DNA of 64,000 nt, from contig CANKWU010000001.1 in assembly GCA_947487385.1 (NCBI GenBank), positions 203,421 to 267,420 on the forward strand, given 5' to 3'. Numbering within the stretch: the stretch's first letter is position 1; every line of letters begins with the position of its first letter. The notes under the pieces are model-generated. The model did no database searches, was not told where the DNA came from, and worked only from the letters and a program-made list of their open reading frames with translations. Positions 11,126-20,329 of this stretch are shown here, one piece after another. Both the position numbers and the translations under genes were made by a program. This DNA is from Spartobacteria bacterium. Its GTDB lineage: Bacteria; Verrucomicrobiota; Verrucomicrobiia; Chthoniobacterales; UBA6821.

Positions 11126-11282
11126 ATTCTTACTGATAGGGTAGCAGATGATTCTTCATTTGGAAGGGACTGTTTTTTTCTATCATGGCTTGCGCTCACC
11201 CAATGGGGAGGATAGAAATTTCTACTTGATGAGTTTTCCCCCTCTCACTGTCGAAATCCTTTCCCCCTCTTCTTTCAGAGGG

Positions 11283-14249
11283 ATGAAGCTTTTTTTCCTG
11301 ACTCTTCTCTGCATTATTGTCTCTGGCGCGGCCTGTAGAGCCTATTCACAGACCGAGGCCACACCCGAGGAAATCTTCAAGGCTGGTGCGGCTGCATTCC
11401 AGTCAGGCAACTTCGATGAGGCCGCCAAGAAGTTTGAGGCTGTTCTTGCTGCGGGTCCCAGTGATGAGGCTTTGGATACGATCCTTTTCACGCTTGCTTC
11501 GACGTATTTCAATCAGAAGAAATTTCCTAAAGCCGAGGAGTATTACAATAGGTCTATTAAGGAGTTCCCTAATGGTAAAAACAAGACCAAGGCCCTGATT
11601 GCGATTTCACAGATTCAAATGCAGACAGGGCGCAAGGCCGAGGCCGAGCAGTCCCTTAAAAAAGCTTCCGAAGGAACCGGTGACCTTGCGGCCCGGGCCC
11701 GAATGGCCCAAGCCTCCATGCTTGCAGAAAGTGGAAAGCCCGTTGAGGCTGTTGCTGCACTTCGCCCGATGATTGCTGGTGGGATCAAGGATGATCTTTC
11801 GGCGCAGGCCGCTATGGCTATCGTCGAGATCGAGTCAAAGCAGGGTAATCTGAACGAGGCGGTGAAGTTGTTGGACCAGCTTCAGGGTGCGGGCAACCTC
11901 ATTGATAACCCCCTGCAGCTCGACATTCTTTCGGTTCGGATCGGTGATGCTCTGCTTGCCAAGGGTGAGCGACATAAGGCACTCCGGATGTATGCGATCG
12001 TGCGGCCCAAGCAGGTTGTTTCGGATCTCCAGAAAAAGCGTATTGAGAAGATCGATAAGACGATCAATGACAACACTGCTACCCTTCAGAAAAATCCTAA
12101 GGCCTTTATGGAGGTCAATGCCACCAATGCCCGTCTAAAGGAGGATCAGAAACAGCTCCAGTCGGTTCTTGAGCAGTTCGAGAAGCTTCCTGACACCGAG
12201 CTGCCCGTTCGCCTCCGCCAGGCCAAGGCCTACGACGAACTCGATCAGAAATGGGAGACCATCCTGATCTGGGAGGGTCTTCTGGAGTCTTCCAAGGATC
12301 CGAAGGTCCGGGAGGATGCGCTCTTCAGCATCGCCGCCGCCTACTGCGCCCTGGGAAGGGGAGAGGACGCCGTTCCAGCGCTGGACCGCTACCTTGCTGA
12401 GTATCCCTCAGGAAAATACGCCTCCCAGACAGATTACCTCAAGGGGGCATTGGCCCTCGAAGCCGGCGATTTCAAAGGGGCCGAAACCATCTTCGGTACC
12501 CGTAACGAGAAGGTGACTTCTCCCGAGTTGGCGGCCGACATGCAGTTCCTGCTCGCGAATGCAAAATTTGCACAGGCGATCGATCCCAAGACTCCGAATC
12601 CGGATAAATATAAGGAGGCGATCAAGGATTATCAAAAATACATCACCAAGTATCCCACCGGGAAATTTACAGAGGAAAGCGCTTACCGCATACCGCTCTG
12701 CTCGTTTCAGTTGGGTGACTACGGTAAGGCACTGGAGGGATTCCAGAACTACGTGAAGAAATTCCCCAAGGGGACGTTTACCGGTGATTCCGACTATCGC
12801 ATCGCGCTCTGTTATCAGGCAGCAAACAAACACGATGACGTTATCAGATTGTGTGATGAGTGGGTAAAGCATCACGAGGGTGAGGTGATGCAGGCGGAGA
12901 TCCTCTCGCTCAAGGGAGATGCCTATGACAAGAAGGGGATGCCGGCTGAGTCGGCTGCTGCTTACCGCGCCTCGGTGAACTTTGCTGATAACGACGACCT
13001 CCTCAAGTACTCACTCTTCCAAGCCAACACCCAATATCAGTTACTAAACCGCTGGGATGACATTGCGGAGATGTTCAACCGCTTTATCGAACGTCATCCG
13101 AAGCATCCGGCTGTGGTGGCCGCAGTTTTTTGGGTCTCCAAGGCCAAGATTAAGCAGGGGAAGCCCGAAGAGGCGAAGAAGTATCTTGCTGATAACATTC
13201 TGAAGAACATTGACGATCGTCAGCAGGATGCCGTCGAGCAACTCCTGACCCAGCTTGCCCAGACCTGCGCCAAAAGACCGCGCCCCTCGTTGATTGCCAT
13301 TCAGAATGCTTCCCCTCAACAGGAATCCACTGCCAATGCTCCCGCTGATGCGCAGGCCTCGCCGACGCCGCGCCCATCCCCGACTCCCCCTCCTCCCTAC
13401 GATGCCGACGCGGACTTTGCCAAGTACCTGAGCGAGTCGAACACGGGGAATTCACTACTTGCCAAAGCCCGCATGCGCTTTGCCCTCGCCCAACTTGCCG
13501 GATACACGAAGAAACCGGACCGTCAGAAGGAGCTGATGGCCTCAATCTATAAAGACTTCCCCGCTGACAAACTCAGCGCCATGCTTCTCTCCGAATGCGG
13601 CCAGATTGCTCTTGATCGGGGCGATGTGGACAAGGCTGAGACCTTCTTCAAGGAGTTCATGACTTCGTTCCCTAAGAGTGACCTGCTCGAGTATGCTTAC
13701 TGCGGCATGGGACAGGTGTCGCTTGCGAGGAACCAACCCGACGAGGCCATTAAGTGGTTTGACGATTGCGTGAACAAGGCCTCTGCAGAAGCTACGCTTG
13801 CTCAGGTGACGTATGGGAAAGGAAAGGCTCTTCTTGCCAAAGGAAAGTTTGACGAGGCCAAGAAGGTCTTTGAGCAGGTCGCCTCCACAAAGGATTGGCG
13901 TGGTGAGATCACCGCCAAGGCGCTGATGTCTCTGGGGGACCTGGAGGAAAAACGAGGCAAGCCCGATGCAGCCATCCAGTACTACCAGCGCGTTTACGTG
14001 GCCTACCAGCGCTATCCATCTGTGGTGATTCCTGCCTACCTTAAGGCGGCTGATGCCTTCATCAAACTCAACAAACCCGAGGATGCCGCCAAGGATCTCA
14101 AGGATATGCTCTCGAAACCACGCCTAGCGGCTTCCCCTCTCGCGGAGGAAGCACGGAAAAAACTGGATGCTCTTCCAGCGCCGCCTGTTCAGTCCGGTCA
14201 GCCTAGTTCATCCTCCCAGCCATCTATCCCATCACCTTCCAAATCATGA
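11283..14249 (+). CDS. Large periplasmic tetratricopeptide-repeat protein
   Basis: Signal peptide from ATG 11283 (MKLFFLTLLCII...); many TPR units ending in YP/FP-x-G/S motifs (EFPNG, EYPSG, KYPTG, KFPKG, SFPKS). The ORF-track start at 11148 is probably an over-extension. Confidence 0.85.
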   Translation: MKLFFLTLLCIIVSGAACRAYSQTEATPEEIFKAGAAAFQSGNFDEAAKKFEAVLAAGPSDEALDTILFTLASTYFNQKKFPKAEEYYNRSIKEFPNGKNKTKALIAISQIQMQTGRKAEAEQSLKKASEGTGDLAARARMAQASMLAESGKPVEAVAALRPMIAGGIKDDLSAQAAMAIVEIESKQGNLNEAVKLLDQLQGAGNLIDNPLQLDILSVRIGDALLAKGERHKALRMYAIVRPKQVVSDLQKKRIEKIDKTINDNTATLQKNPKAFMEVNATNARLKEDQKQLQSVLEQFEKLPDTELPVRLRQAKAYDELDQKWETILIWEGLLESSKDPKVREDALFSIAAAYCALGRGEDAVPALDRYLAEYPSGKYASQTDYLKGALALEAGDFKGAETIFGTRNEKVTSPELAADMQFLLANAKFAQAIDPKTPNPDKYKEAIKDYQKYITKYPTGKFTEESAYRIPLCSFQLGDYGKALEGFQNYVKKFPKGTFTGDSDYRIALCYQAANKHDDVIRLCDEWVKHHEGEVMQAEILSLKGDAYDKKGMPAESAAAYRASVNFADNDDLLKYSLFQANTQYQLLNRWDDIAEMFNRFIERHPKHPAVVAAVFWVSKAKIKQGKPEEAKKYLADNILKNIDDRQQDAVEQLLTQLAQTCAKRPRPSLIAIQNASPQQESTANAPADAQASPTPRPSPTPPPPYDADADFAKYLSESNTGNSLLAKARMRFALAQLAGYTKKPDRQKELMASIYKDFPADKLSAMLLSECGQIALDRGDVDKAETFFKEFMTSFPKSDLLEYAYCGMGQVSLARNQPDEAIKWFDDCVNKASAEATLAQVTYGKGKALLAKGKFDEAKKVFEQVASTKDWRGEITAKALMSLGDLEEKRGKPDAAIQYYQRVYVAYQRYPSVVIPAYLKAADAFIKLNKPEDAAKDLKDMLSKPRLAASPLAEEARKKLDALPAPPVQSGQPSSSSQPSIPSPSKS

Positions 14250-15082
14250 GTGCACGTTCCTTGACTCACTCGATCCTCTTCTGTGGGGTGGCTCTCTTAT
14301 CGGGAATCCTCCGGGCCGAGGATATCACGACAACGGACGGTCAGACCTACACCAACTCGAGCATCAGGCGTTCGGGGGAGTTACTCATGATCAAGGTGAC
14401 CATGGAGGGGAGCACTAGTTCCATTGAAATGGGGTTGCCTCTGGCACGGATCATCAAAGTCAGCTTTGCCGAACCTCCCGAGCTTGCCAAGGCCTTGTCC
14501 GCCGCCAGCATGGGGAACGCCGCAGAGGTACTGTTGCTCACCGGAAACTATGTCTCCCAGCAAGGAGATATGAAGGATGTGCCTGGATCGTGGTGGCCTG
14601 AGATGGCGAGAGTCCGTCTTCTGGCGCTAGCCGCATCGGGCAAGGATGCAGACTGTGCCGATCTTGCTCGCCAGATCGGGGCACTCAAGTCGCCTGAAGC
14701 TGATTCCTTATCCCGTGCAGGGACGCTCTTCGCCCCACTGGCTACCGGTGATCTTCAGGCTGTTATCGTGGGGGGCAAGGCCTTGCCTCGTGTCAATGGT
14801 GATCAAGGTTCTGCCCTTGCTCAACTCGCCTTGGGACGGGCCTTGCTACAGAAACAGGACTACGTTGGCGCTCTTCTCCGTGCTTTTCTTACCATCAAGG
14901 TTTTTTATCCCTCGGTGGCACTACTGCAGCCGCCGGCTCTTGCCGGTGCTGCGGAGTCTTATATCGGTCTCAAGGATGTCAAGCGCGCCACGCAGTGCTA
15001 CGCTCAGATTGTGAAGGAGTGGCCCGACTCACCACAGGCTGCCGAGGCCAAAAAAAAGTCGGCATCCCTTTCTCAGCCTTGA
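14246..15082 (+). CDS. Exported protein with N-terminal beta-rich module and C-terminal CpoB/YbgF-like TPR
   Basis: Signal peptide; DITTTDGQTY beta module; AQLALGRALL...AFLTIKVFYP...IVKEWPDSPQAAEA TPR; ATGA overlap with the upstream gene. Confidence 0.75.
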   Translation: MSARSLTHSILFCGVALLSGILRAEDITTTDGQTYTNSSIRRSGELLMIKVTMEGSTSSIEMGLPLARIIKVSFAEPPELAKALSAASMGNAAEVLLLTGNYVSQQGDMKDVPGSWWPEMARVRLLALAASGKDADCADLARQIGALKSPEADSLSRAGTLFAPLATGDLQAVIVGGKALPRVNGDQGSALAQLALGRALLQKQDYVGALLRAFLTIKVFYPSVALLQPPALAGAAESYIGLKDVKRATQCYAQIVKEWPDSPQAAEAKKKSASLSQP

Positions 15083-15131
15083 TTTCAAGATTACCATCAC
15101 TAACTTAACAAACCATCCAGCATCCTAACCC

Positions 15132-15989
15132 ATGAACATCCGTCGTCCTCACCTCCTGTTGCTCCTGACTGCTTTCCTCTGCCTTGGCACAGCCATTGCA
15201 TCCGCTGAGGAATCTTCCAAAAAAGATACAAAAGCTGCCCACAGCAAATCGTTGCTTGAGACTCTTGTTGAGGGTGGTTGGGTGATGTTCCCGATTGGAA
15301 TCATGTCCGTGCTGACCGTCTATCTTTCCACTGACGGCATCAAGAACACCTCGATCAAGAAGACATCGCCCCCCGCCTACGAGGCCGAAGTGAAACGTCT
15401 TTTCCAGCAAGGGGATTATGTGGGTGCCTATACCTTCTGTCGCGATAACAAATCTCCACTGACCAATGTCCTTCGTGTCGGCATTTCCCTGCTCGGTGAT
15501 GGCAAGACGATGATGGAAGAGGGAATGATCTCCGAGATGCACAAGGAGAGCGCCGCCATGGGAACCCAGATCAACTACCTCTCCGTCATCGGTGTCGTGA
15601 CGCCGATGATCGGTCTTCTCGGCACTGTGACCGGAATGATCAAGGCCTTCAGCACGCTCGGCTCCTCCGGTATTGGTGATCCGGCGAGTCTCTCCGGGGC
15701 CATCGGTGAGGTGCTTGTCGCCACGGCGAGCGGTCTGGTGATCGCGATTCCCGCCTTCGGTATGTTTTATTTCTTACGGAGTCGCTCCACCACGGCGATG
15801 CATCACATTCAGGACATCCTCAACGTGCTCTTCCGCAAGATGCCTTATGAGTATTTGGAGGGTGTCCACATCAGCGGTGAGGAAATCTACGCAAATACGC
15901 CGAACTGGCTGGTTGTCGCTACGGAGGAAGTAACGACTAATGAGGGGGATCCCGTCGTCGAAGAGTATAAAACCAGCGTCGGGCAGTAA
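15132..15989 (+). CDS. MotA/TolQ/ExbB proton-channel family protein
   Basis: TPMIGLLGTVTGMIKAF and EVLVATASGLVIAIPA motifs; N-terminal signal peptide. Confidence 0.93.
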   Translation: MNIRRPHLLLLLTAFLCLGTAIASAEESSKKDTKAAHSKSLLETLVEGGWVMFPIGIMSVLTVYLSTDGIKNTSIKKTSPPAYEAEVKRLFQQGDYVGAYTFCRDNKSPLTNVLRVGISLLGDGKTMMEEGMISEMHKESAAMGTQINYLSVIGVVTPMIGLLGTVTGMIKAFSTLGSSGIGDPASLSGAIGEVLVATASGLVIAIPAFGMFYFLRSRSTTAMHHIQDILNVLFRKMPYEYLEGVHISGEEIYANTPNWLVVATEEVTTNEGDPVVEEYKTSVGQ

Positions 15990-16020
15990 CTTCCTCTCAT
16001 CCCCCAACCGATAACGAACC

Positions 16021-16488
16021 ATGGCAGGAGGAGGAGGAGGACTAGAGAAGGGCGAGCCTGATTTTCAGATCGCCCCGATGGTGGATGTCCTGCTGGTCAT
16101 CCTGATTTTCTTCATGGTGATCACCTCGGCCCAAGTCTTGAACGTCGATAAGTCGATTAAGCTACCAATTGCGGCGGAGGCCGCCAAGAAGGATGACTCC
16201 CGCTCAGAGGCGATCGTCAATGTTCGTTGGGACCCGGAAGCGAACCGGAGTGTTTTTAATTTTAAGGATCGCATTTACACCAAGGGGTCTGAGCTTGTGG
16301 AGCCTTTCAAGGAGGCCAAGGCGTACGGAGATAAAATGGCTGCTTCCAAGCCGGGCCAGAACCCCGAGTTTCGTATTGTGATCCGAGGCGACCGTGAAGT
16401 GCCGGCACTCTTTGTCTCCCAAGCGATGAATGCCGCGGCGGAGGCCGGTATTTCGGACATCTCCTTCTCCGCAATGAACCACGACTGA
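16021..16488 (+). CDS. ExbD/TolR family protein (copy 1)
   Basis: FQIAPMVDVLLVILIFFMV with the conserved TM Asp; VIRGDREVP...AGISDISF. Confidence 0.92.
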   Translation: MAGGGGGLEKGEPDFQIAPMVDVLLVILIFFMVITSAQVLNVDKSIKLPIAAEAAKKDDSRSEAIVNVRWDPEANRSVFNFKDRIYTKGSELVEPFKEAKAYGDKMAASKPGQNPEFRIVIRGDREVPALFVSQAMNAAAEAGISDISFSAMNHD

Positions 16489-16498
16489 GTTCCGACAC

Positions 16499-16939
16499 AT
16501 GAAATCATTTGTCAACGAAGATGACGGAACAATGGGCTTCCAGATAGCCCCGATGGTCGACGTGGTTTTCGTGATCATGCTCTTCTTCATGGTCATGGCT
16601 GGGGCAGTCAAGGTGGAGAACGAACTCTCCACCAAGCTCCCTGGGTCTGCGGAATCCTCTTCGGCAACCGAGTTTAACGACGAGACCATTATCTCAATTT
16701 CCGACGAGGGGGAGGTATCGCTGAACGACGAACCTTTCGACTCCATCACGAGCGCCGATCTTCCCCAACTCCGAGCCACCCTGATGCGGCTGAAAGAGAA
16801 CGCGGATAACGCTCACCAACCCGCCATTGTCACTATTGTCAGCGATGCCCATGCGAAGTACAGCCGTACGATTGATGTCCTTAATGCACTGGCGGCAGCC
16901 AAGATCAGCAATGTGACCTTCAACGTGGACGATGAGTAA
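16499..16939 (+). CDS. ExbD/TolR family protein (copy 2)
   Basis: FQIAPMVDVVFVIMLFFMV with the conserved TM Asp; IVSDAHAKYSRTIDVLNAL...ISNVTF. Confidence 0.92.
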   Translation: MKSFVNEDDGTMGFQIAPMVDVVFVIMLFFMVMAGAVKVENELSTKLPGSAESSSATEFNDETIISISDEGEVSLNDEPFDSITSADLPQLRATLMRLKENADNAHQPAIVTIVSDAHAKYSRTIDVLNALAAAKISNVTFNVDDE

Positions 16940-18479
16940 TCCTAAATCACCCAACGAGGCCCCTCCCTCCGGGCCCCAAGACAACCATGACCTTAATGAG
17001 CATCAAGGGTTGCCTGAGATTCATGCTGATCATGCGCCTCACACCGCCCCGGCGGAGCCTCATCCGATCAAGAAGAATGTCTGGCAGCGGTGGATGGCAT
17101 GGAGTGGCAGTTTCTTCGTTCTTAGCCTCCTACTGCACATTATCCTGATCGGCGGTGCCACACTGCTGGTGGTGGAGGTGGTTCAGTCTCGCAAGGAGAA
17201 GATGAAGTTCACGGCACCACCGCCAAGCCCAGCGGCTGCCGCCGAGCACAAAGTGAAACCCTCGAAGAAAGCGGCCGCGGCACCCGCGCTTTCCAAGCGG
17301 ATCACCTCAACCTCTGCCAACGTCTCGATCGCCCTCCCTGCCATGGAGATGAACTCGACAGGAACCGACGTCATGGCCTCTGTCATGAGTGGACTCGGCG
17401 CCTCTGGGCTTGGGAATGGAGTTGGTGGAGGAGGCTCTGGCATGGCCTCCATGCCGCTAGCCGGCCTCACAGCGTTTGGGTTTAAGGGTGGTGGAGCAGG
17501 AGGCTTGGTTGGACATATTTTCGACCTAAAGCAGACAAAGGATCACCAACCCACCGAGATCAAGGATGATGGTCTTTTCAAGGACCCTCATTTTGCTGAC
17601 GATAAAGACCACCCGGATAAGTGGTTTTCCTTATTTAGAGAATGCCAAAATGATCCTTCTAAGAACAAGAATCTCGCAGATGGAGTCTTGGGTGAGGCCA
17701 AGGTGATCAATGATTTTCTCTCCAAGGGTTGGGATAGAAGTATCCTCGAGAAATTTTATGAATCTCCTGATCCGGTAACGACCTATGAATTCTGTATTTT
17801 AAATGCCGGACAAAAAGCTGCCTTAAAGGCATTCGGAGTCGATAATCAGATGAAGATGAATCATCTTTTGATCCACTACAGGGGGAAGGTTACTGGACCT
17901 CGGGATGGCACTTTCCGATTTATAGTGTATATGGGGAATGGGTCTTTGGGTATTCGATTTGGTGAGGAGGTTGTCTTTGGTTCATTTAAGGGGCTCATTA
18001 GCCGTAGTTCTTTTAAGCAAGGGCCCCCGGATAAAACCCGTATCTACCCAGGGTGGGGCGCAAGTGTCGGTCCCTGGTTCACTGTGCAAGCGGGCAAGAA
18101 GTATCCCATGGATGTCCTCATGGTAGTGGGGGGAGAAAGACCTGGCGATGGAGGGTTTGATTGCATCGTGCTGATGGAGGAAAAAAACCCTCCCACGCCT
18201 TATCTTCCCTCAGAGTGGCAGTGGTTTACCAAGCAGGGTCTTCAATATCAGACTCCGACGTCTTTGTGGCATGATAAGATCTGGTATCGCTACCCTCTCT
18301 TTGTGATGAAGCAAGGATTACCTAAACCACCCGCATTTATAATGCCTAACGACTCAATGCCCAATTATCCGTCGACACCGTGGGGTGCGGAGTTGCTGCG
18401 TAGATGGAAAGAAAATGGTCCGTCCCCGAAAGTTCCTGATTTTGCTCCAGAGCCTCTGGTCTTCCCCGGAGCAAAATAG
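16932..18479 (+). CDS. Single-TM TonB/TolA-like protein with a putative PA14-like periplasmic head
   Basis: TM segment VLSLLLHIIL carries SxxxH; Pro/Ala/Lys linker, then a Gly-rich linker; HYRGKVTGPRDGTFRF...GPWFTVQAGKKYPMDV resembles PA14-type beta-sandwich segments. Confidence 0.6.
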   Translation: MSNPKSPNEAPPSGPQDNHDLNEHQGLPEIHADHAPHTAPAEPHPIKKNVWQRWMAWSGSFFVLSLLLHIILIGGATLLVVEVVQSRKEKMKFTAPPPSPAAAAEHKVKPSKKAAAAPALSKRITSTSANVSIALPAMEMNSTGTDVMASVMSGLGASGLGNGVGGGGSGMASMPLAGLTAFGFKGGGAGGLVGHIFDLKQTKDHQPTEIKDDGLFKDPHFADDKDHPDKWFSLFRECQNDPSKNKNLADGVLGEAKVINDFLSKGWDRSILEKFYESPDPVTTYEFCILNAGQKAALKAFGVDNQMKMNHLLIHYRGKVTGPRDGTFRFIVYMGNGSLGIRFGEEVVFGSFKGLISRSSFKQGPPDKTRIYPGWGASVGPWFTVQAGKKYPMDVLMVVGGERPGDGGFDCIVLMEEKNPPTPYLPSEWQWFTKQGLQYQTPTSLWHDKIWYRYPLFVMKQGLPKPPAFIMPNDSMPNYPSTPWGAELLRRWKENGPSPKVPDFAPEPLVFPGAK

Positions 18480-18575: not shown

Positions 18576-19805
18576 ATGAGAAAATCAGCTACCATGTCTG
18601 TCCCTTTTAGGATGCTTTTCACTTGGGTGTCGGCTTTCTTGCTAACACTTATTCCCACTAGTCTTCATGCAGAGTCCGAGGGACTCGTAAAGTCGGAGGC
18701 TATCACGAATACGCTGATTTCATTTGGAACGGCCGCTGACCATCTTGCTGCGGCTGATGAGCTTGTCTCCTCGGGTGACTCTGGGAAGGCGATCACGACC
18801 TACCGATTCATTGCCAAAACCTATCCCAAGAGCAAGGAGGCTCCAGAGGCCCAGTTCAAGCTGGCCAAGCAGCTCAACAAGAAGGGAAACTTCGAAGCTG
18901 CTTTCAAGGAATACCAGACCCTCCTCCAAAAATATCCGCAGACTCCGAACTTCGAAGAATCGGTTGCTGACGAGATCTCTATCGCCAATGAATTCCTGAA
19001 GGGGATGAAGGTGAAGTTCCTCGGAATCCCGATGGTTCCCTCGATGGAGAAAGCCGAGGAAATGTACCTTGCGATCCTCAAGGTGTCGCCCTACAGCAAG
19101 CATGCTGCAATCACTCAGTTCAATCTCGGCCTAGCCCTCCAGAAACAAGGGAAGGCTCAGGAGGCGATTGCTGCTTACCAGAAGGTCCTCGATAAATACC
19201 CCAACAGCGCAGCCTGTGATTCCGCCGCCTACCAGGTCGGCTATGTCTACCAGCAACTCGGGATGACGGGAAAGTCGCAGGATCTTTCCGCGCTCAAAGA
19301 GGCTCAGAACAATTACCAAGATTTTCTTCTTCAATATCCCAATAGTGAGAAGGTTCAGCAGGCCGGTCAAAATATGAAGAAAATGCTCTCCAAGGAGTCC
19401 GTTGACACCCTGCGAGTGGCCCGGTTCTACGACTTCAACAAGGATTTCAAGGCATCCGCGATCTATTACAATGATGTTATCCGCCGCTTTCCCCAGAGCG
19501 AGGAGGCAACTGAGGCGAAGAGTCGTCTGGATGAACTCAAGGCCCTTTATGGTGAGGATTCCCTTCGCGTGGGACAGGAGCGTCCGGAGAATGGAGAGCG
19601 TCTTGCCGAGCGCCGACGTCTTCAGGCTCAGGTCGAGTCGATGGCCCTTGCGAATTATAATGGACCGCCGAAAAAGGATTTTGTCCCCGAGGAAGCGCAG
19701 CTGCCCCGTCCTCAGATGAAGGGTGATTTGAGGGATACAAAACCTATTCCACTGCAAGAACCCCCGGTTCAGACACCGCAGCAAAAGACTCCTCTTGCCC
19801 CATGA
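18576..19805 (+). CDS. bamD: Outer-membrane assembly factor BamD-like TPR protein
   Basis: TPRs with YPKS/YPQT/YPNS ends; C-terminal VARFYD...ASAIYYNDVIRRFPQS; adjacent to lptE. The true start may be a downstream ATG. Confidence 0.72.
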   Translation: MRKSATMSVPFRMLFTWVSAFLLTLIPTSLHAESEGLVKSEAITNTLISFGTAADHLAAADELVSSGDSGKAITTYRFIAKTYPKSKEAPEAQFKLAKQLNKKGNFEAAFKEYQTLLQKYPQTPNFEESVADEISIANEFLKGMKVKFLGIPMVPSMEKAEEMYLAILKVSPYSKHAAITQFNLGLALQKQGKAQEAIAAYQKVLDKYPNSAACDSAAYQVGYVYQQLGMTGKSQDLSALKEAQNNYQDFLLQYPNSEKVQQAGQNMKKMLSKESVDTLRVARFYDFNKDFKASAIYYNDVIRRFPQSEEATEAKSRLDELKALYGEDSLRVGQERPENGERLAERRRLQAQVESMALANYNGPPKKDFVPEEAQLPRPQMKGDLRDTKPIPLQEPPVQTPQQKTPLAP

Positions 19806-20329
19806 TGACAAACCTTCGGATTCTTCTCCTCTTGCCTCTGTTCTTAGCGCTAGGAGGATGCGGATACCATCTTGGGGAGATCAAGCCGACACCGATGAGG
19901 CGCGTTTCGACACTCGCGGTGAATACCTTCAAGAACTCAACGCTCATTCCCAGACTCGAGGCCCAGACGGCGGATGCTGTCGTGAAGCAGTTCCAGAAAG
20001 ATGGCACCTATCAGATCGAATCCGCAGACAGGGCCGACGCCATCGTTGAGGGTGTTATTCTGAGTGTGCTGAAGCAACCGATGCGCGTCTTCTCAAGCAA
20101 TGTGCTGCAGACCTCGGAGTTCGAACTCACGGTGACGGTCAGCTATCGCGTCATCGACCGCGTGTCGGGTGTCGAGTTGGTGAAAGGGAAGGCCATTGGT
20201 GTGACTCCCTTCTTCACCGAATCTGATCTCGTCAACTCCGACTTGGTTACTACTCAGAACATGAATTATCCGATTGCTGCCCAGCGCATGGCTGTCAGTC
20301 TGGTAAGCCAAGTTTCCGAGGGATGGTAA
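19802..20329 (+). CDS. lptE: LPS assembly lipoprotein LptE family
   Basis: Lipobox LGGC-GYHLG; TLAVNTFKNST..PRLE...DAVVKQF, ADAIVEGVI. Confidence 0.8.
   Translation: MMTNLRILLLLPLFLALGGCGYHLGEIKPTPMRRVSTLAVNTFKNSTLIPRLEAQTADAVVKQFQKDGTYQIESADRADAIVEGVILSVLKQPMRVFSSNVLQTSEFELTVTVSYRVIDRVSGVELVKGKAIGVTPFFTESDLVNSDLVTTQNMNYPIAAQRMAVSLVSQVSEGW

What the first reader, a model, noticed from the sequence alone, without database searches (positions are those of the whole stretch)
11283..18479. Candidate uncharacterised proton-motive envelope machine: TPR-TPR-ExbB-ExbD-ExbD-TonB-like operon
Seen: six tightly coupled genes (overlaps or gaps of 50 nt or less) with one MotA/TolQ/ExbB channel, two ExbD/TolR paralogs both keeping the essential TM Asp, a 988-aa periplasmic TPR scaffold, a CpoB-like TPR protein and a single-TM protein. 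No TonB-dependent receptor, TolB or Pal is nearby. Established: one TolQ-like plus two TolR-like subunits with a TPR partner is the architecture of the myxobacterial AglR/Q/S-AglT gliding motor, unlike canonical Ton or Tol-Pal. Inference: a PVC-specific force-generating complex for surface motility, adhesion, macromolecule uptake or envelope remodelling.
Basis: partly seen in the sequence, partly recalled or inferred. Interest (0 to 1): 0.72.

Follow-up and report, generated by a model that had tools for sequence, protein, structure and literature searches.

The report
Proton motor with sugar-lectin-tipped arm
This is a real, conserved six-gene operon of freshwater Verrucomicrobia that couples an ExbB/ExbD proton motor to a TonB-like arm ending in a PA14 (sugar-binding-type) head; it is a head-swapped variant of a cassette described in 2025, its nearest studied relative is the Akkermansia mucin-uptake locus MUL1, and glycan capture or import is therefore its most likely but untested job.

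Summary
Six tightly packed genes encode two secreted TPR proteins, one ExbB, two ExbD that both keep the membrane Asp, and a 515-aa single-pass protein.

The "TonB-like" protein has a TonB/TolA-type anchor (invariant Ser65-x3-His69) and a highly conserved linker. Its head is a PA14 beta-sandwich, not a TonB C-terminal domain.

All six genes travel together in Chthoniobacterales and other Verrucomicrobiota, in two circularly permuted orders. BamD-LptE adjacency is confined to the window's close relatives.

The operon is neither canonical Ton nor Tol. The genome has seven ExbB loci, including a classical ExbB-ExbD-TonB-receptor set.

It is not undescribed. It belongs to the TPR / tolQ-like / two tolR-like / transducer cassette of Williams-Jones et al. 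2025, which reported a vWA head. One relative carries vWA, PA14 and DUF5077-like heads in tandem on the same anchor.

In an ExbB tree, this motor groups (99/96) with the motor of Akkermansia muciniphila MUL1. The ExbD tree leaves that link unresolved.

Relatives often sit beside glycoside hydrolases. Most likely function: proton-driven glycan capture or import without TonB-dependent receptors (about 0.45). A Tol-like envelope role is the main rival. The gliding-motor reading has no support.

The parts
11283..14249 (+). TPR1: secreted 988-aa TPR scaffold. The signal peptide starts at Met46 of the ORF that opens at 11148.
   Evidence: Multiple TPR Pfam families, plus YbgF/BamD-type NCBIfam hits that are generic TPR. 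Orthologs are 62-85% identical in Chthoniobacterales modules. A profile of it aligns collinearly over 450 columns with A. muciniphila Mul1A/Amuc_0544 (hhalign probability 96.5, E 9e-10).
14246..15082 (+). TPR2: secreted 278-aa protein with a small N-terminal beta domain (aa 22-74) followed by TPR-like helices.
   Evidence: AF2 model pLDDT 85.9. Foldseek finds only generic TPR matches such as BamD, YfgM and YbgF. It always follows TPR1 in related loci. No significant match to Amuc_0543.
15132..15989 (+). ExbB/TolQ-family proton channel with an N-terminal signal-peptide-like extension (the 'long' ExbB type).
   Evidence: PF01618 at 86 bits; TolQ and ExbB equivalog models score far below their cut-offs. 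Pore Thr and Glu positions are conserved. It is 81-94% identical in related Chthoniobacterales modules. It forms a clade with the MUL1 ExbB at 99/96 support.
16021..16488 (+). ExbD1 (155 aa).
   Evidence: PF02472. The TM Asp aligns with E. coli ExbD D25 and TolR D23. The D1 clade is separate from D2 across classes (100/99).
16499..16939 (+). ExbD2 (146 aa), the heterologous partner of ExbD1.
   Evidence: PF02472. TM Asp conserved. D2 clade supported at 98/98. It is 86-97% identical in related Chthoniobacterales modules.
16932..17462 (+). X515 N-module: cytoplasmic tail (aa 1-49), TM helix (aa 50-90) with invariant Ser65-x3-His69, and a conserved 'disordered' linker (aa 91-177; motifs RKEKxKFTAPPP, EHKVKPSKK, SKRITST, GLTAFGFKG).
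   Evidence: Alignment A1. Against the 19 homologs other than the two near-identical ones (P0001, P0002), TM identity is 63-80% and linker identity 58-85%, versus 31-50% for the head. The same anchor and motifs occur on vWA- and PA14-headed paralogs in L038. The S-x3-H matches the first half of the TonB/TolA SHLS motif (PMC12204202).
17463..18479 (+). X515 head (aa 178-515): PA14-type beta-sandwich with a helical insert (about aa 230-274). There is no TonB C-terminal domain.
   Evidence: AF2 pLDDT mostly 80-96 in this region. Foldseek best hits are PA14 carbohydrate-binding domains: MpIBP 6x8a at E 1e-5, Epa/Flo adhesins, and GH31/GH3 PA14 inserts. Some homologs carry a precomputed PF07691 hit. 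No PF03544. The canonical DD motif is absent here (GNG) but present in 10 of 22 family members.
18576..20329 (+). BamD-like (409 aa) and LptE (175 aa) genes immediately downstream. This is a lineage-specific neighbour, not part of the conserved module.
   Evidence: TIGR03302 at 108 bits and PF04390. They follow the module only in close relatives (L001, L005, L007, L011, L043). They are absent after it in L003, L013, L015, L035, L036, L041, L044 and L045.

Best explanation
The operon encodes a trans-periplasmic, proton-driven machine of the Ton/Tol design. What it is and what it does carry different confidence.

Identity (about 0.85). It is a PA14-headed member of the PVC 'TPR / TolQ-like / two TolR-like / force-transducer' cassette.

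Mechanism (inferred from homology).
- An ExbB pentamer with an ExbD1-ExbD2 heterodimer in the inner membrane converts proton flow into mechanical work.
- X515 docks on the motor through its Ser65-x3-His69 transmembrane helix, as TonB and TolA do.
- Its strongly conserved linker binds the ExbD periplasmic domains and/or the two secreted TPR proteins, which form a periplasmic scaffold.
- The fast-evolving PA14 head is the working end that is pulled.

Function (about 0.45). The head engages a glycan, or a glycan-handling outer-membrane partner. The system then powers capture, retention or import of polymers into the periplasm without TonB-dependent receptors. The nearest studied relative, Akkermansia MUL1, is reported to do this for mucin.
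For: Shown:
- Gene content and couplings.
- The catalytic Asp in both ExbD, and the conserved ExbB pore residues.
- Invariant S-x3-H anchor and conserved linker motifs.
- PA14 fold of the head.
- All six genes persist together in two circularly permuted orders, A (TPR1-TPR2-ExbB-ExbD1-ExbD2-X) and B (ExbB-ExbD1-ExbD2-X-TPR1-TPR2). They also persist in other families and classes of the phylum.
- In L038 the same cassette carries three tandem transducers with vWA, PA14 and DUF5077-like heads on a shared anchor. This ties it to the vWA transducers of PMC12204202.

Link to glycans:
- The ExbB tree places the A. muciniphila MUL1 ExbB with this module at 99/96. The other three Akkermansia ExbB pair one-to-one with other paralogs of this genome.
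- The TPR1 profile matches Mul1A collinearly.
- mul1A (Amuc_0544) mutants cannot use mucin, and MUL genes are needed for accumulation of mucin in internal compartments.
- CAZyme genes lie within 10 kb in 5 of 7 distinct contexts sampled. In L045 the module heads a co-directional GH29-GH116-FucU-GH27 block.
- The genome has only one TonB-dependent receptor, and that one sits beside its own Ton operon.
Against: - No experiment exists on this cassette with its transducer.
- MUL1 itself lacks an X515-type gene, and the only Akkermansia PA14 homolog lacks the S-x3-H anchor.
- The MUL1 ExbB sits on a long branch. The ExbD tree does not recover one-to-one orthology: the MUL1 ExbDs pair with each other at 92/91, and AU tests are indecisive.
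- TPR2 shows no significant similarity to Amuc_0543.
- X515 and its closest relatives have lost the DD motif that PA14 lectins use for Ca2+-dependent sugar binding. Direct sugar binding by this particular head is therefore doubtful.
- In this genome the neighbours are BamD and LptE, not CAZymes.
- CAZyme adjacency was sampled in only seven contexts, without a background control, in a CAZyme-rich phylum.
- The cassette encodes no outer-membrane conduit.
Confidence: 0.45

Rival explanations
1. Tol-like envelope-maintenance machine. The cassette would be the functional substitute for Tol-Pal in these bacteria. It would use the arm and TPR scaffold to tether or remodel the outer membrane and peptidoglycan, or to assist BAM/Lpt during growth and division.
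For: - No TolB_N is found in the genome.
- BamD-LptE follow directly, with no + strand terminator-like site listed in the gap, and do so in several close relatives.
- The motor subunits are 79-97% identical between Chthoniobacterales genomes whose heads are 39-57% identical, which is a housekeeping-like level of constraint.
- There is a single copy per genome, and it is retained in a streamlined 2-Mb genome.
- TPR1 and TPR2 give their best family and fold matches to YbgF/BamD-type TPR proteins.
- This head lacks the lectin DD motif.
Against: - BamD-LptE adjacency is lost outside the closest clade.
- A separate TolQ-like/TolR-like/TolA-like set exists on C17 and groups with E. coli TolQ and ExbB.
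- The mul1A mutant of the nearest studied relative was grown in GlcNAc-supplemented medium, and wild type does not need this pathway to colonise germ-free mice.
- Variable and multiple heads per motor fit substrate diversity better than a housekeeping tether.
Confidence: 0.25
2. Trans-envelope glycan sensor. The PA14 head would detect a periplasmic or surface glycan and relay the signal, with motor energy, to the cytoplasmic tail. This would resemble PA14-bearing RsgI anti-sigma factors or TonB-dependent signalling.
For: - Foldseek also matches the PA14-like sensor domains of clostridial RsgI anti-sigma factors (6qdi and 6qe7).
- Relatives carry a cytoplasmic SAM domain ahead of the anchor.
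- LacI and response-regulator genes lie near some modules.
Against: - X515's cytoplasmic tail is only about 49 residues and poorly conserved, with no recognisable output domain.
- No sigma or anti-sigma partner is present in the module.
- The conserved parts are the motor-binding anchor and the linker.
Confidence: 0.1
3. Surface-motility or adhesion motor of the AglRQS/Glt type.
For: The stoichiometry of genes matches: one TolQ-like plus two TolR-like, with TPR proteins nearby. Williams-Jones et al. also speculate on a gliding role for the vWA variant.
Against: - No Glt-type partner was detected. The only GltE-model hit is 23.6 bits against a cut-off of 225, and it is on the BamD-like gene.
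- The module contains no TonB_C-type GltG/J equivalent.
- The same 1+2+TPR layout occurs in non-gliding contexts, namely the Fibrobacter cellulose-induced cluster and Akkermansia MUL1; A. muciniphila is described as non-motile.
- Orthology to AglR/Q/S could not be tested here.
Confidence: 0.05

Closest known systems
PVC 'motor-driven force transducer' cassette (TPR gene, tolQ-like gene, pair of tolR-like genes, SHLS-anchored transducer with a vWA head). Williams-Jones et al., Mol Biol Evol 2025, PMC12204202.
   Same: - Same gene set and order.
[quoted passage not shown]
- In L038 a vWA-headed and a PA14-headed copy share an identical anchor and linker, which also carry X515's motifs.
   Different: The head here is PA14, not vWA. 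'PA14' does not occur in that paper's text. The paper reports no phenotype or function.
Akkermansia muciniphila mucin utilization locus 1 (MUL1; mul1A = Amuc_0544). Davey et al., Nat Microbiol 2023 (cited through PMC12570417, PMC13174399 and PMC12418764).
   Same: - It has one signal-peptide ExbB, two ExbD, a roughly 1,100-aa TPR protein and a roughly 350-aa second protein. The order corresponds to order B of this cassette.
- Its ExbB forms a clade with this module's ExbB at 99/96.
- The TPR1 profile aligns with Mul1A.
   Different: - No transducer gene. A gap of about 1 kb without a credible ORF lies where X would sit.
- ExbD orthology is unresolved.
- TPR2 versus Amuc_0543 is not significant.
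- Identities are only 24-31%.
- The gene numbering of MUL1 was inferred here from MreB = Amuc_0540 and Amuc_0546 = 'biopolymer transporter'. The primary paper could not be read.
Ton system (ExbB-ExbD-TonB plus a TonB-dependent transporter).
   Same: It uses a 5:2-type ExbB/ExbD motor with the essential Asp. It has a single-pass partner with an S-x3-H anchor and an extended linker.
   Different: It has two heterologous ExbD, no TonB C-terminal domain and no TBDT partner, and it adds two TPR proteins. The genome's true Ton operon is on contig C8.
Fibrobacter succinogenes FSU_2397-2403 cluster (TPR, TPR, ExbB, ExbD, ExbD, TonB-family), which is induced on cellulose (PMC6851124).
   Same: It has the same parts list and order outside the PVC group, and it is associated with polysaccharide use.
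   Different: Its last gene is annotated as TonB family, not PA14-headed. Homology to this module was not tested here.

Membership tests
Ton system | ExbB and ExbD homologs with the essential TM Asp | tested here: met
   PF01618 at 86 bits and PF02472 at 59 and 71 bits. The Asp aligns with E. coli ExbD D25. The ExbB and ExbD equivalog models score far below their cut-offs.
Ton system | Transducer with a TonB C-terminal domain (PF03544) | tested here: not met
   X515 has no Pfam or NCBIfam hit. The genome's three TonB_C hits lie on C8, C17 and C5. The head has a PA14 fold.
Ton system | A cognate TonB-dependent outer-membrane transporter | tested here: not met
   The genome has a single Plug-domain gene, on C8 next to a canonical ExbB-ExbD-TonB operon.
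Tol-Pal system | TolQ/TolR/TolA together with TolB, Pal and CpoB | tested here: not met
   TolQ and TolR equivalogs score 62 and 51-59 bits against cut-offs of 221 and 127. No TolB_N is found in the genome. The OmpA-domain genes are on other contigs. TPR2 scores 29 bits against 90 for YbgF and has a different N-terminal domain.
PVC TPR/TolQ-like/2xTolR-like/force-transducer cassette (PMC12204202) | A TPR gene, one tolQ-like gene and a heterologous pair of tolR-like genes upstream of the transducer | tested here: met
   The D1 and D2 clades are distinct across classes.
PVC TPR/TolQ-like/2xTolR-like/force-transducer cassette (PMC12204202) | [quoted passage not shown] | tested here: met
   S65 and H69 are invariant in 22 sequences. 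The L and S positions of SHLS are Ala76 and Val80, so only the S-H half is kept. The AF2 model shows a helix at 50-90, disorder at 91-173 and a folded domain at 178-515.
PVC TPR/TolQ-like/2xTolR-like/force-transducer cassette (PMC12204202) | C-terminal domain with a vWA fold | tested here: not met
   The fold is PA14. A vWA-headed paralog with the same anchor sits in the same cassette in L038. X515 is therefore a head variant of the family, not the described vWA type.
Akkermansia MUL1 | Orthologous motor (ExbB and two ExbD) | tested here: inconclusive
   The ExbB clade is supported at 99/96, but the MUL1 branch is long. ExbD is unresolved, and AU tests give p = 0.14 and 0.087.
Akkermansia MUL1 | Mul1A-type giant TPR protein plus the Amuc_0543-type partner | tested here: inconclusive
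   TPR1 profile versus Mul1A: hhalign probability 96.5, collinear over 450 columns, although TPR repeats inflate such scores. TPR2 versus Amuc_0543: probability 2%.
Akkermansia MUL1 | Required for glycan (mucin) uptake and growth | not testable with these tools
   This is known only for A. muciniphila mul1A mutants, from the literature.
AglRQS/Glt gliding motor | One TolQ-like plus two TolR-like subunits | tested here: met
   The count is not diagnostic, because MUL1 and Fibrobacter FSU_2400-2402 share it.
AglRQS/Glt gliding motor | Orthology to AglR/Q/S and presence of Glt envelope partners (GltA-K; GltG/J with TonB_C) | not tested
The only related signal is a GltE-model hit of 23.6 bits against a cut-off of 225, on the BamD-like gene.
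PA14 lectin domains | PA14 beta-sandwich fold | tested here: met
   Foldseek E 1e-5 to 1e-4 against the MpIBP, Epa, Flo and GH31 PA14 domains, with TM-score on the target 0.4-0.54. Homologs carry weak PF07691 hits.
PA14 lectin domains | The DD (DcisD-type) Ca2+/sugar-binding motif before the central strand. Its role is taken from general knowledge of Epa/Flo/MpIBP lectins. | tested here: not met
   X515 has GNG at that position. 10 of 22 family members keep DD.

The most novel reading that the evidence does not exclude
The TPR-TPR-ExbB-ExbD-ExbD-X cassette is the general engine by which Verrucomicrobiota, and more widely PVC bacteria, import polymers into the periplasm without SusC/TonB-dependent receptors. 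One highly conserved motor and anchor would carry interchangeable ligand-binding heads (PA14, vWA, DUF5077-like) that determine which polymer is pulled in. Akkermansia MUL1 would be a reduced derivative of this engine.
Probability: 0.3. Interest if true: 0.85.

Novelty: new variant of a known kind. Interest (0 to 1): 0.6.

Why it matters
Verrucomicrobiota and other PVC bacteria are major degraders of polysaccharides and mucin. They accumulate glycans in the periplasm, yet largely lack the SusC/D or TonB-dependent importers that explain this in Bacteroidota. This genome has one such receptor.

The 2025 description of this cassette family stated that its function is unknown and that no deletion phenotype exists. 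Two results here bear on that:
- The cassette's ExbB groups with the motor of Akkermansia MUL1, whose TPR gene mul1A has a clear mucin-use phenotype. The ExbD tree leaves the link unresolved.
- The arm carries a lectin-type head that evolves much faster than the motor.

Together they turn an anonymous operon into a specific hypothesis that can be tested in the existing A. muciniphila transposon library and in cultivable Verrucomicrobia.

If the rival is right instead, the cassette would be the missing Tol-like envelope system of these bacteria. That would also be worth knowing.

Tried and rejected
- The primary MUL paper (PMC11741908) is not held. MUL1 gene content was therefore read from the A. 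muciniphila ATCC BAA-835 genome. That genome was recognised as G210 by its exact length, 2,664,102 bp, recalled from memory rather than checked with a tool. Numbering was anchored on Amuc_0540 = MreB and Amuc_0546 = 'biopolymer transporter'.
- L016, a lake MAG labelled 'Akkermansia muciniphila', has TPR1-TPR2-X without ExbBD between them. The label is doubtful and the locus was not pursued.
- TPR2 profile versus Amuc_0543: not significant.
- ExbD phylogeny does not resolve the MUL1 relationship.
- Foldseek of TPR2 gave only generic TPR hits.
- The promoter and terminator scan was no better than shuffles, so the operon ends are undefined.
- The roughly 1-kb gap in MUL1, where X would sit, has no credible ORF and gave no tblastn hit to X515 at E 1e-5.
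- BamD-LptE as functional partners: rejected as a conserved link, because the adjacency is restricted to close relatives.
- A canonical Ton or Tol identity was rejected by the membership tests.
- The gliding motor was not testable by phylogeny, for lack of Agl reference sequences.

Full report
**Observation**

The + strand of the window carries six tightly coupled ORFs:
- TPR1, 11283-14249. The ORF opens at 11148, but Met46 starts a typical signal peptide, which gives 988 aa.
- TPR2, 14246-15082 (278 aa).
- ExbB, 15132-15989 (285 aa, with an N-terminal signal-peptide-like extension).
- ExbD1, 16021-16488 (155 aa).
- ExbD2, 16499-16939 (146 aa).
- X515, 16932-18479 (515 aa).

The junctions are -4, +49, +31, +10 and -8 nt. 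Pfam and NCBIfam confirm the TPR, MotA_ExbB and ExbD assignments and give nothing for X515. Both ExbD keep the membrane Asp aligned with E. coli ExbD D25 and TolR D23. ExbB keeps the pore Thr and Glu positions.

BamD-like (18576-19805), LptE (19802-20329) and RsmI follow in the same direction. The scan listed no + strand terminator-like site in the X515-BamD gap, and terminator-like sites in the region were no more frequent than chance. Only the 'CpoB-like' label for TPR2 is too specific.

**Genome background**

The window lies in a 2.05-Mb, 94%-complete genome. Relatives are freshwater Chthoniobacterales/'Spartobacteria' MAGs. The genome has seven ExbB and eight ExbD genes. The other loci are:

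| Contig | Content |
|---|---|
| C8 | Canonical ExbB-ExbD-TonB next to the genome's only Plug-domain receptor |
| C17 | TolQ-like/TolR-like/TolA-like set that groups with E. coli TolQ and ExbB |
| C11 | LamG-fused ExbB, ExbD, TonB and a putative porin |
| C7 | ExbB-ExbD-TPR929 |
| C3, C5 | Smaller sets |

No TolB_N is detectable. The OmpA-domain genes and three secretins lie elsewhere.

**The 'TonB-like' protein**

An alignment of 22 homologs shows invariant Ser65-x3-His69 in the TM helix. These are the S and H of the TonB/TolA SHLS motor-binding motif; the L and S positions are Ala and Val. The post-membrane segment is strikingly conserved, with motifs RKEKxKFTAPPP, EHKVKPSKK, SKRITST and GLTAFGFKG.

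Against the 19 homologs other than the two near-identical ones (P0001, P0002), the TM is 63-80% identical and the 'disordered' linker 58-85%. The folded head is only 31-50% identical.

The AlphaFold model (pLDDT 70.8 overall, mostly 80-96 in the head) shows a helix at 50-90, disorder at 91-173 and a beta-sandwich with a helical insert at 178-515. Foldseek against the PDB returns PA14 carbohydrate-binding domains as best hits: MpIBP PA14 at E 1e-5, Epa and Flo adhesins, GH31/GH3 PA14 inserts, and RsgI sensors.

The DD motif that PA14 lectins use for Ca2+ and sugar binding is present in 10 of 22 family members. It is replaced by GNG in X515 and its near relatives.

A profile search of 1.84 billion representatives finds 1,273 members, 456 of them at E <= 1e-30. 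In the phylum, 70 of 301 genomes have at least one member, often several.

**Conservation of the module**

tblastn of the window's proteins on all fetched loci shows the six genes together in every complete Chthoniobacterales locus. They occur in two circular permutations, TPR1-TPR2-ExbB-D1-D2-X and ExbB-D1-D2-X-TPR1-TPR2. They are also together in another family of the order (G300) and another family of the class (G099).

The motor proteins are 79-97% identical where X is 39-57% identical. BamD-LptE-RsmI follow only in the window's closest clade (L001, L005, L007, L011, L043). Elsewhere the downstream genes differ.

**Link to the published cassette**

Williams-Jones et al. (PMC12204202) described SHLS-anchored transducers with a vWA head. 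[quoted passage not shown] The paper reports no known function or phenotype.

In L038 (another class of the phylum) the same cassette ends in three tandem transducers. Each has a cytoplasmic SAM domain, and their heads are vWA, PA14 and DUF5077-like. The first two share an identical anchor and linker, which carry X515's motifs. X515 is therefore a PA14-headed member of that family. 'PA14' does not occur in the paper's text.

**Link to Akkermansia MUL1**

G210 was recognised as A. muciniphila ATCC BAA-835 by its exact length, 2,664,102 bp, recalled from memory.

Gene numbering was anchored on Amuc_0540 = MreB and Amuc_0546 = 'biopolymer transporter'. On that basis the mul1A gene, Amuc_0544, is a 1,077-1,101-aa TPR protein. 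It is flanked by a 347-aa weakly TPR protein (Amuc_0543). Beyond a gap of about 1 kb lie ExbD152, ExbD168 and a signal-peptide ExbB263. This is order B of the cassette without a transducer.

Evidence for a relationship:
- Pairwise scores pair each of the four Akkermansia ExbB with one paralog of this genome, and MUL1 pairs with this operon.
- An IQ-TREE ExbB tree places MUL1 with the module clade at 99/96, although on a long branch.
- A TPR1 profile aligns collinearly with Mul1A (probability 96.5).

Evidence that weakens it:
- The ExbD tree shows ancient D1 and D2 clades but leaves the MUL1 pair unresolved.
- TPR2 versus Amuc_0543 is not significant.
- The single Akkermansia PA14 homolog lacks the S-x3-H anchor.

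According to the literature read here, MUL genes are needed for accumulation of mucin in internal compartments, mul1A mutants fail on mucin, and Mul1A associates with CAZymes.

**Genomic contexts**

Seven distinct contexts were sampled. CAZyme genes lie within 10 kb in five of them:
- L003: GH2, GH43-CBM6 and LacI.
- L041: beta-helix proteins, GH95, GH42, GalK, GalT and GH43.
- L044: GH31, LamG and GH95.
- L045: two tandem X genes, then a co-directional GH29, GH116, FucU, GDSL and GH27 block.
- L040: a solitary X beside GH28, GH29, NPCBM and GH27.

The other two contexts are pilin-like genes (L042) and BamD-LptE (the window's own clade). This is suggestive, but it has no background control.

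**Interpretation**

Identity is well supported, at about 0.85. This is a Ton/Tol-design proton motor with a heterodimeric ExbD pair, a TPR scaffold and a head-swappable arm that here carries PA14.

Function is inferred. The best-supported reading is energised glycan capture or import independent of TonB-dependent receptors (about 0.45). The rivals are:
- A Tol-like envelope role (about 0.25), favoured by the missing TolB, the BamD-LptE adjacency, the extreme conservation of the motor and the lost DD motif.
- A glycan sensor (about 0.1).
- A gliding motor (about 0.05), for which nothing beyond the subunit count was found.

The same 1+2+TPR layout occurs in Fibrobacter succinogenes (FSU_2397-2403), where it is induced on cellulose. 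The architecture is therefore not PVC-specific.

**Earlier notes of this scan**

Earlier notes report the same cassette with vWA, PA14 and toroid heads in other genomes, and some suggest a MUL1 link. I reached the MUL1 and vWA links from sequence and literature before reading them. I treat them as agreement between similar readers, not as independent evidence.

**Verdict**

This is a real and conserved feature, and a new (PA14-headed) variant of a recently described kind. Its main value is that it connects an operon family with no reported phenotype to a genetically tractable relative.

Noticed in passing
window 15132-18479 compared with L001, L003, L005, L007-L013, L015, L017: There is extreme rate heterogeneity inside one operon. 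ExbB, ExbD1 and ExbD2 are 79-97% identical between genomes in which the PA14 head protein is only 39-57% identical. Within X515, the predicted-disordered linker is more conserved than the folded head.
   Followed up: partly
L038 7229-11323 (G026:C33): Three tandem transducers lie behind one ExbB-ExbD-ExbD motor. Each has a cytoplasmic SAM domain. Their heads are vWA, PA14 and DUF5077-like. The first two have identical anchor-plus-linker sequence over more than 100 residues, which suggests recent duplication or gene conversion of the anchor.
   Followed up: partly
L030 8196-9273 (A. muciniphila, between ExbD152 and mul1A): A stretch of about 1 kb has no credible ORF, exactly where the transducer gene sits in order B of the cassette. 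It could be a decayed transducer or a regulatory region.
   Followed up: partly
L045 8738-20475: The module has two tandem X genes, followed co-directionally by a GH29 fucosidase, a 1,093-aa unknown protein, GH116, FucU, a GDSL esterase and GH27. This is a PUL-like layout headed by the motor cassette.
   Followed up: no
genome contig C11 50.5-61.3 kb (outside the window): A second unusual energiser locus: a TpsB/ShlB-like 648-aa protein, ExbB fused to a roughly 360-aa N-terminal LamG/DUF2341-like region (622 aa in all), ExbD, a Pro-rich TonB (225 aa), and a 748-aa putative porin. These assignments were read from the sequences only; no family search was run on them.
   Followed up: no
genome contig C7 9.5-16.3 kb, and L029 2431-7955 (A. 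muciniphila): A third ExbB-ExbD-giant-TPR operon is orthologous between the two genomes (ExbB pair supported at 96/95). In Akkermansia it is followed by a PBP1-type transglycosylase. Here it is followed by a protein that looks like an HtrA-type protease by eye (not searched). This operon may be the envelope-maintenance set.
   Followed up: no
window 18576-20329: BamD-like (409 aa, with a long Pro/Gln-rich C-terminal tail) and LptE overlap by 4 nt. The BAM and Lpt lipoprotein genes are therefore translationally coupled in this lineage.
   Followed up: no
whole genome (G000): The 2-Mb genome has a single Plug-domain (TonB-dependent) receptor and no TolB_N, but three secretin genes. Two of the secretins are in tandem on C5, about 9 kb upstream of a TonB_C-like/ExbB pair.
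   Followed up: no
L016 (record titled 'MAG: Akkermansia muciniphila', from a lake data set): This locus has TPR1-TPR2-X (37, 33 and 29% identity) with no ExbB or ExbD between them. The taxonomic label is probably wrong.
   Followed up: no
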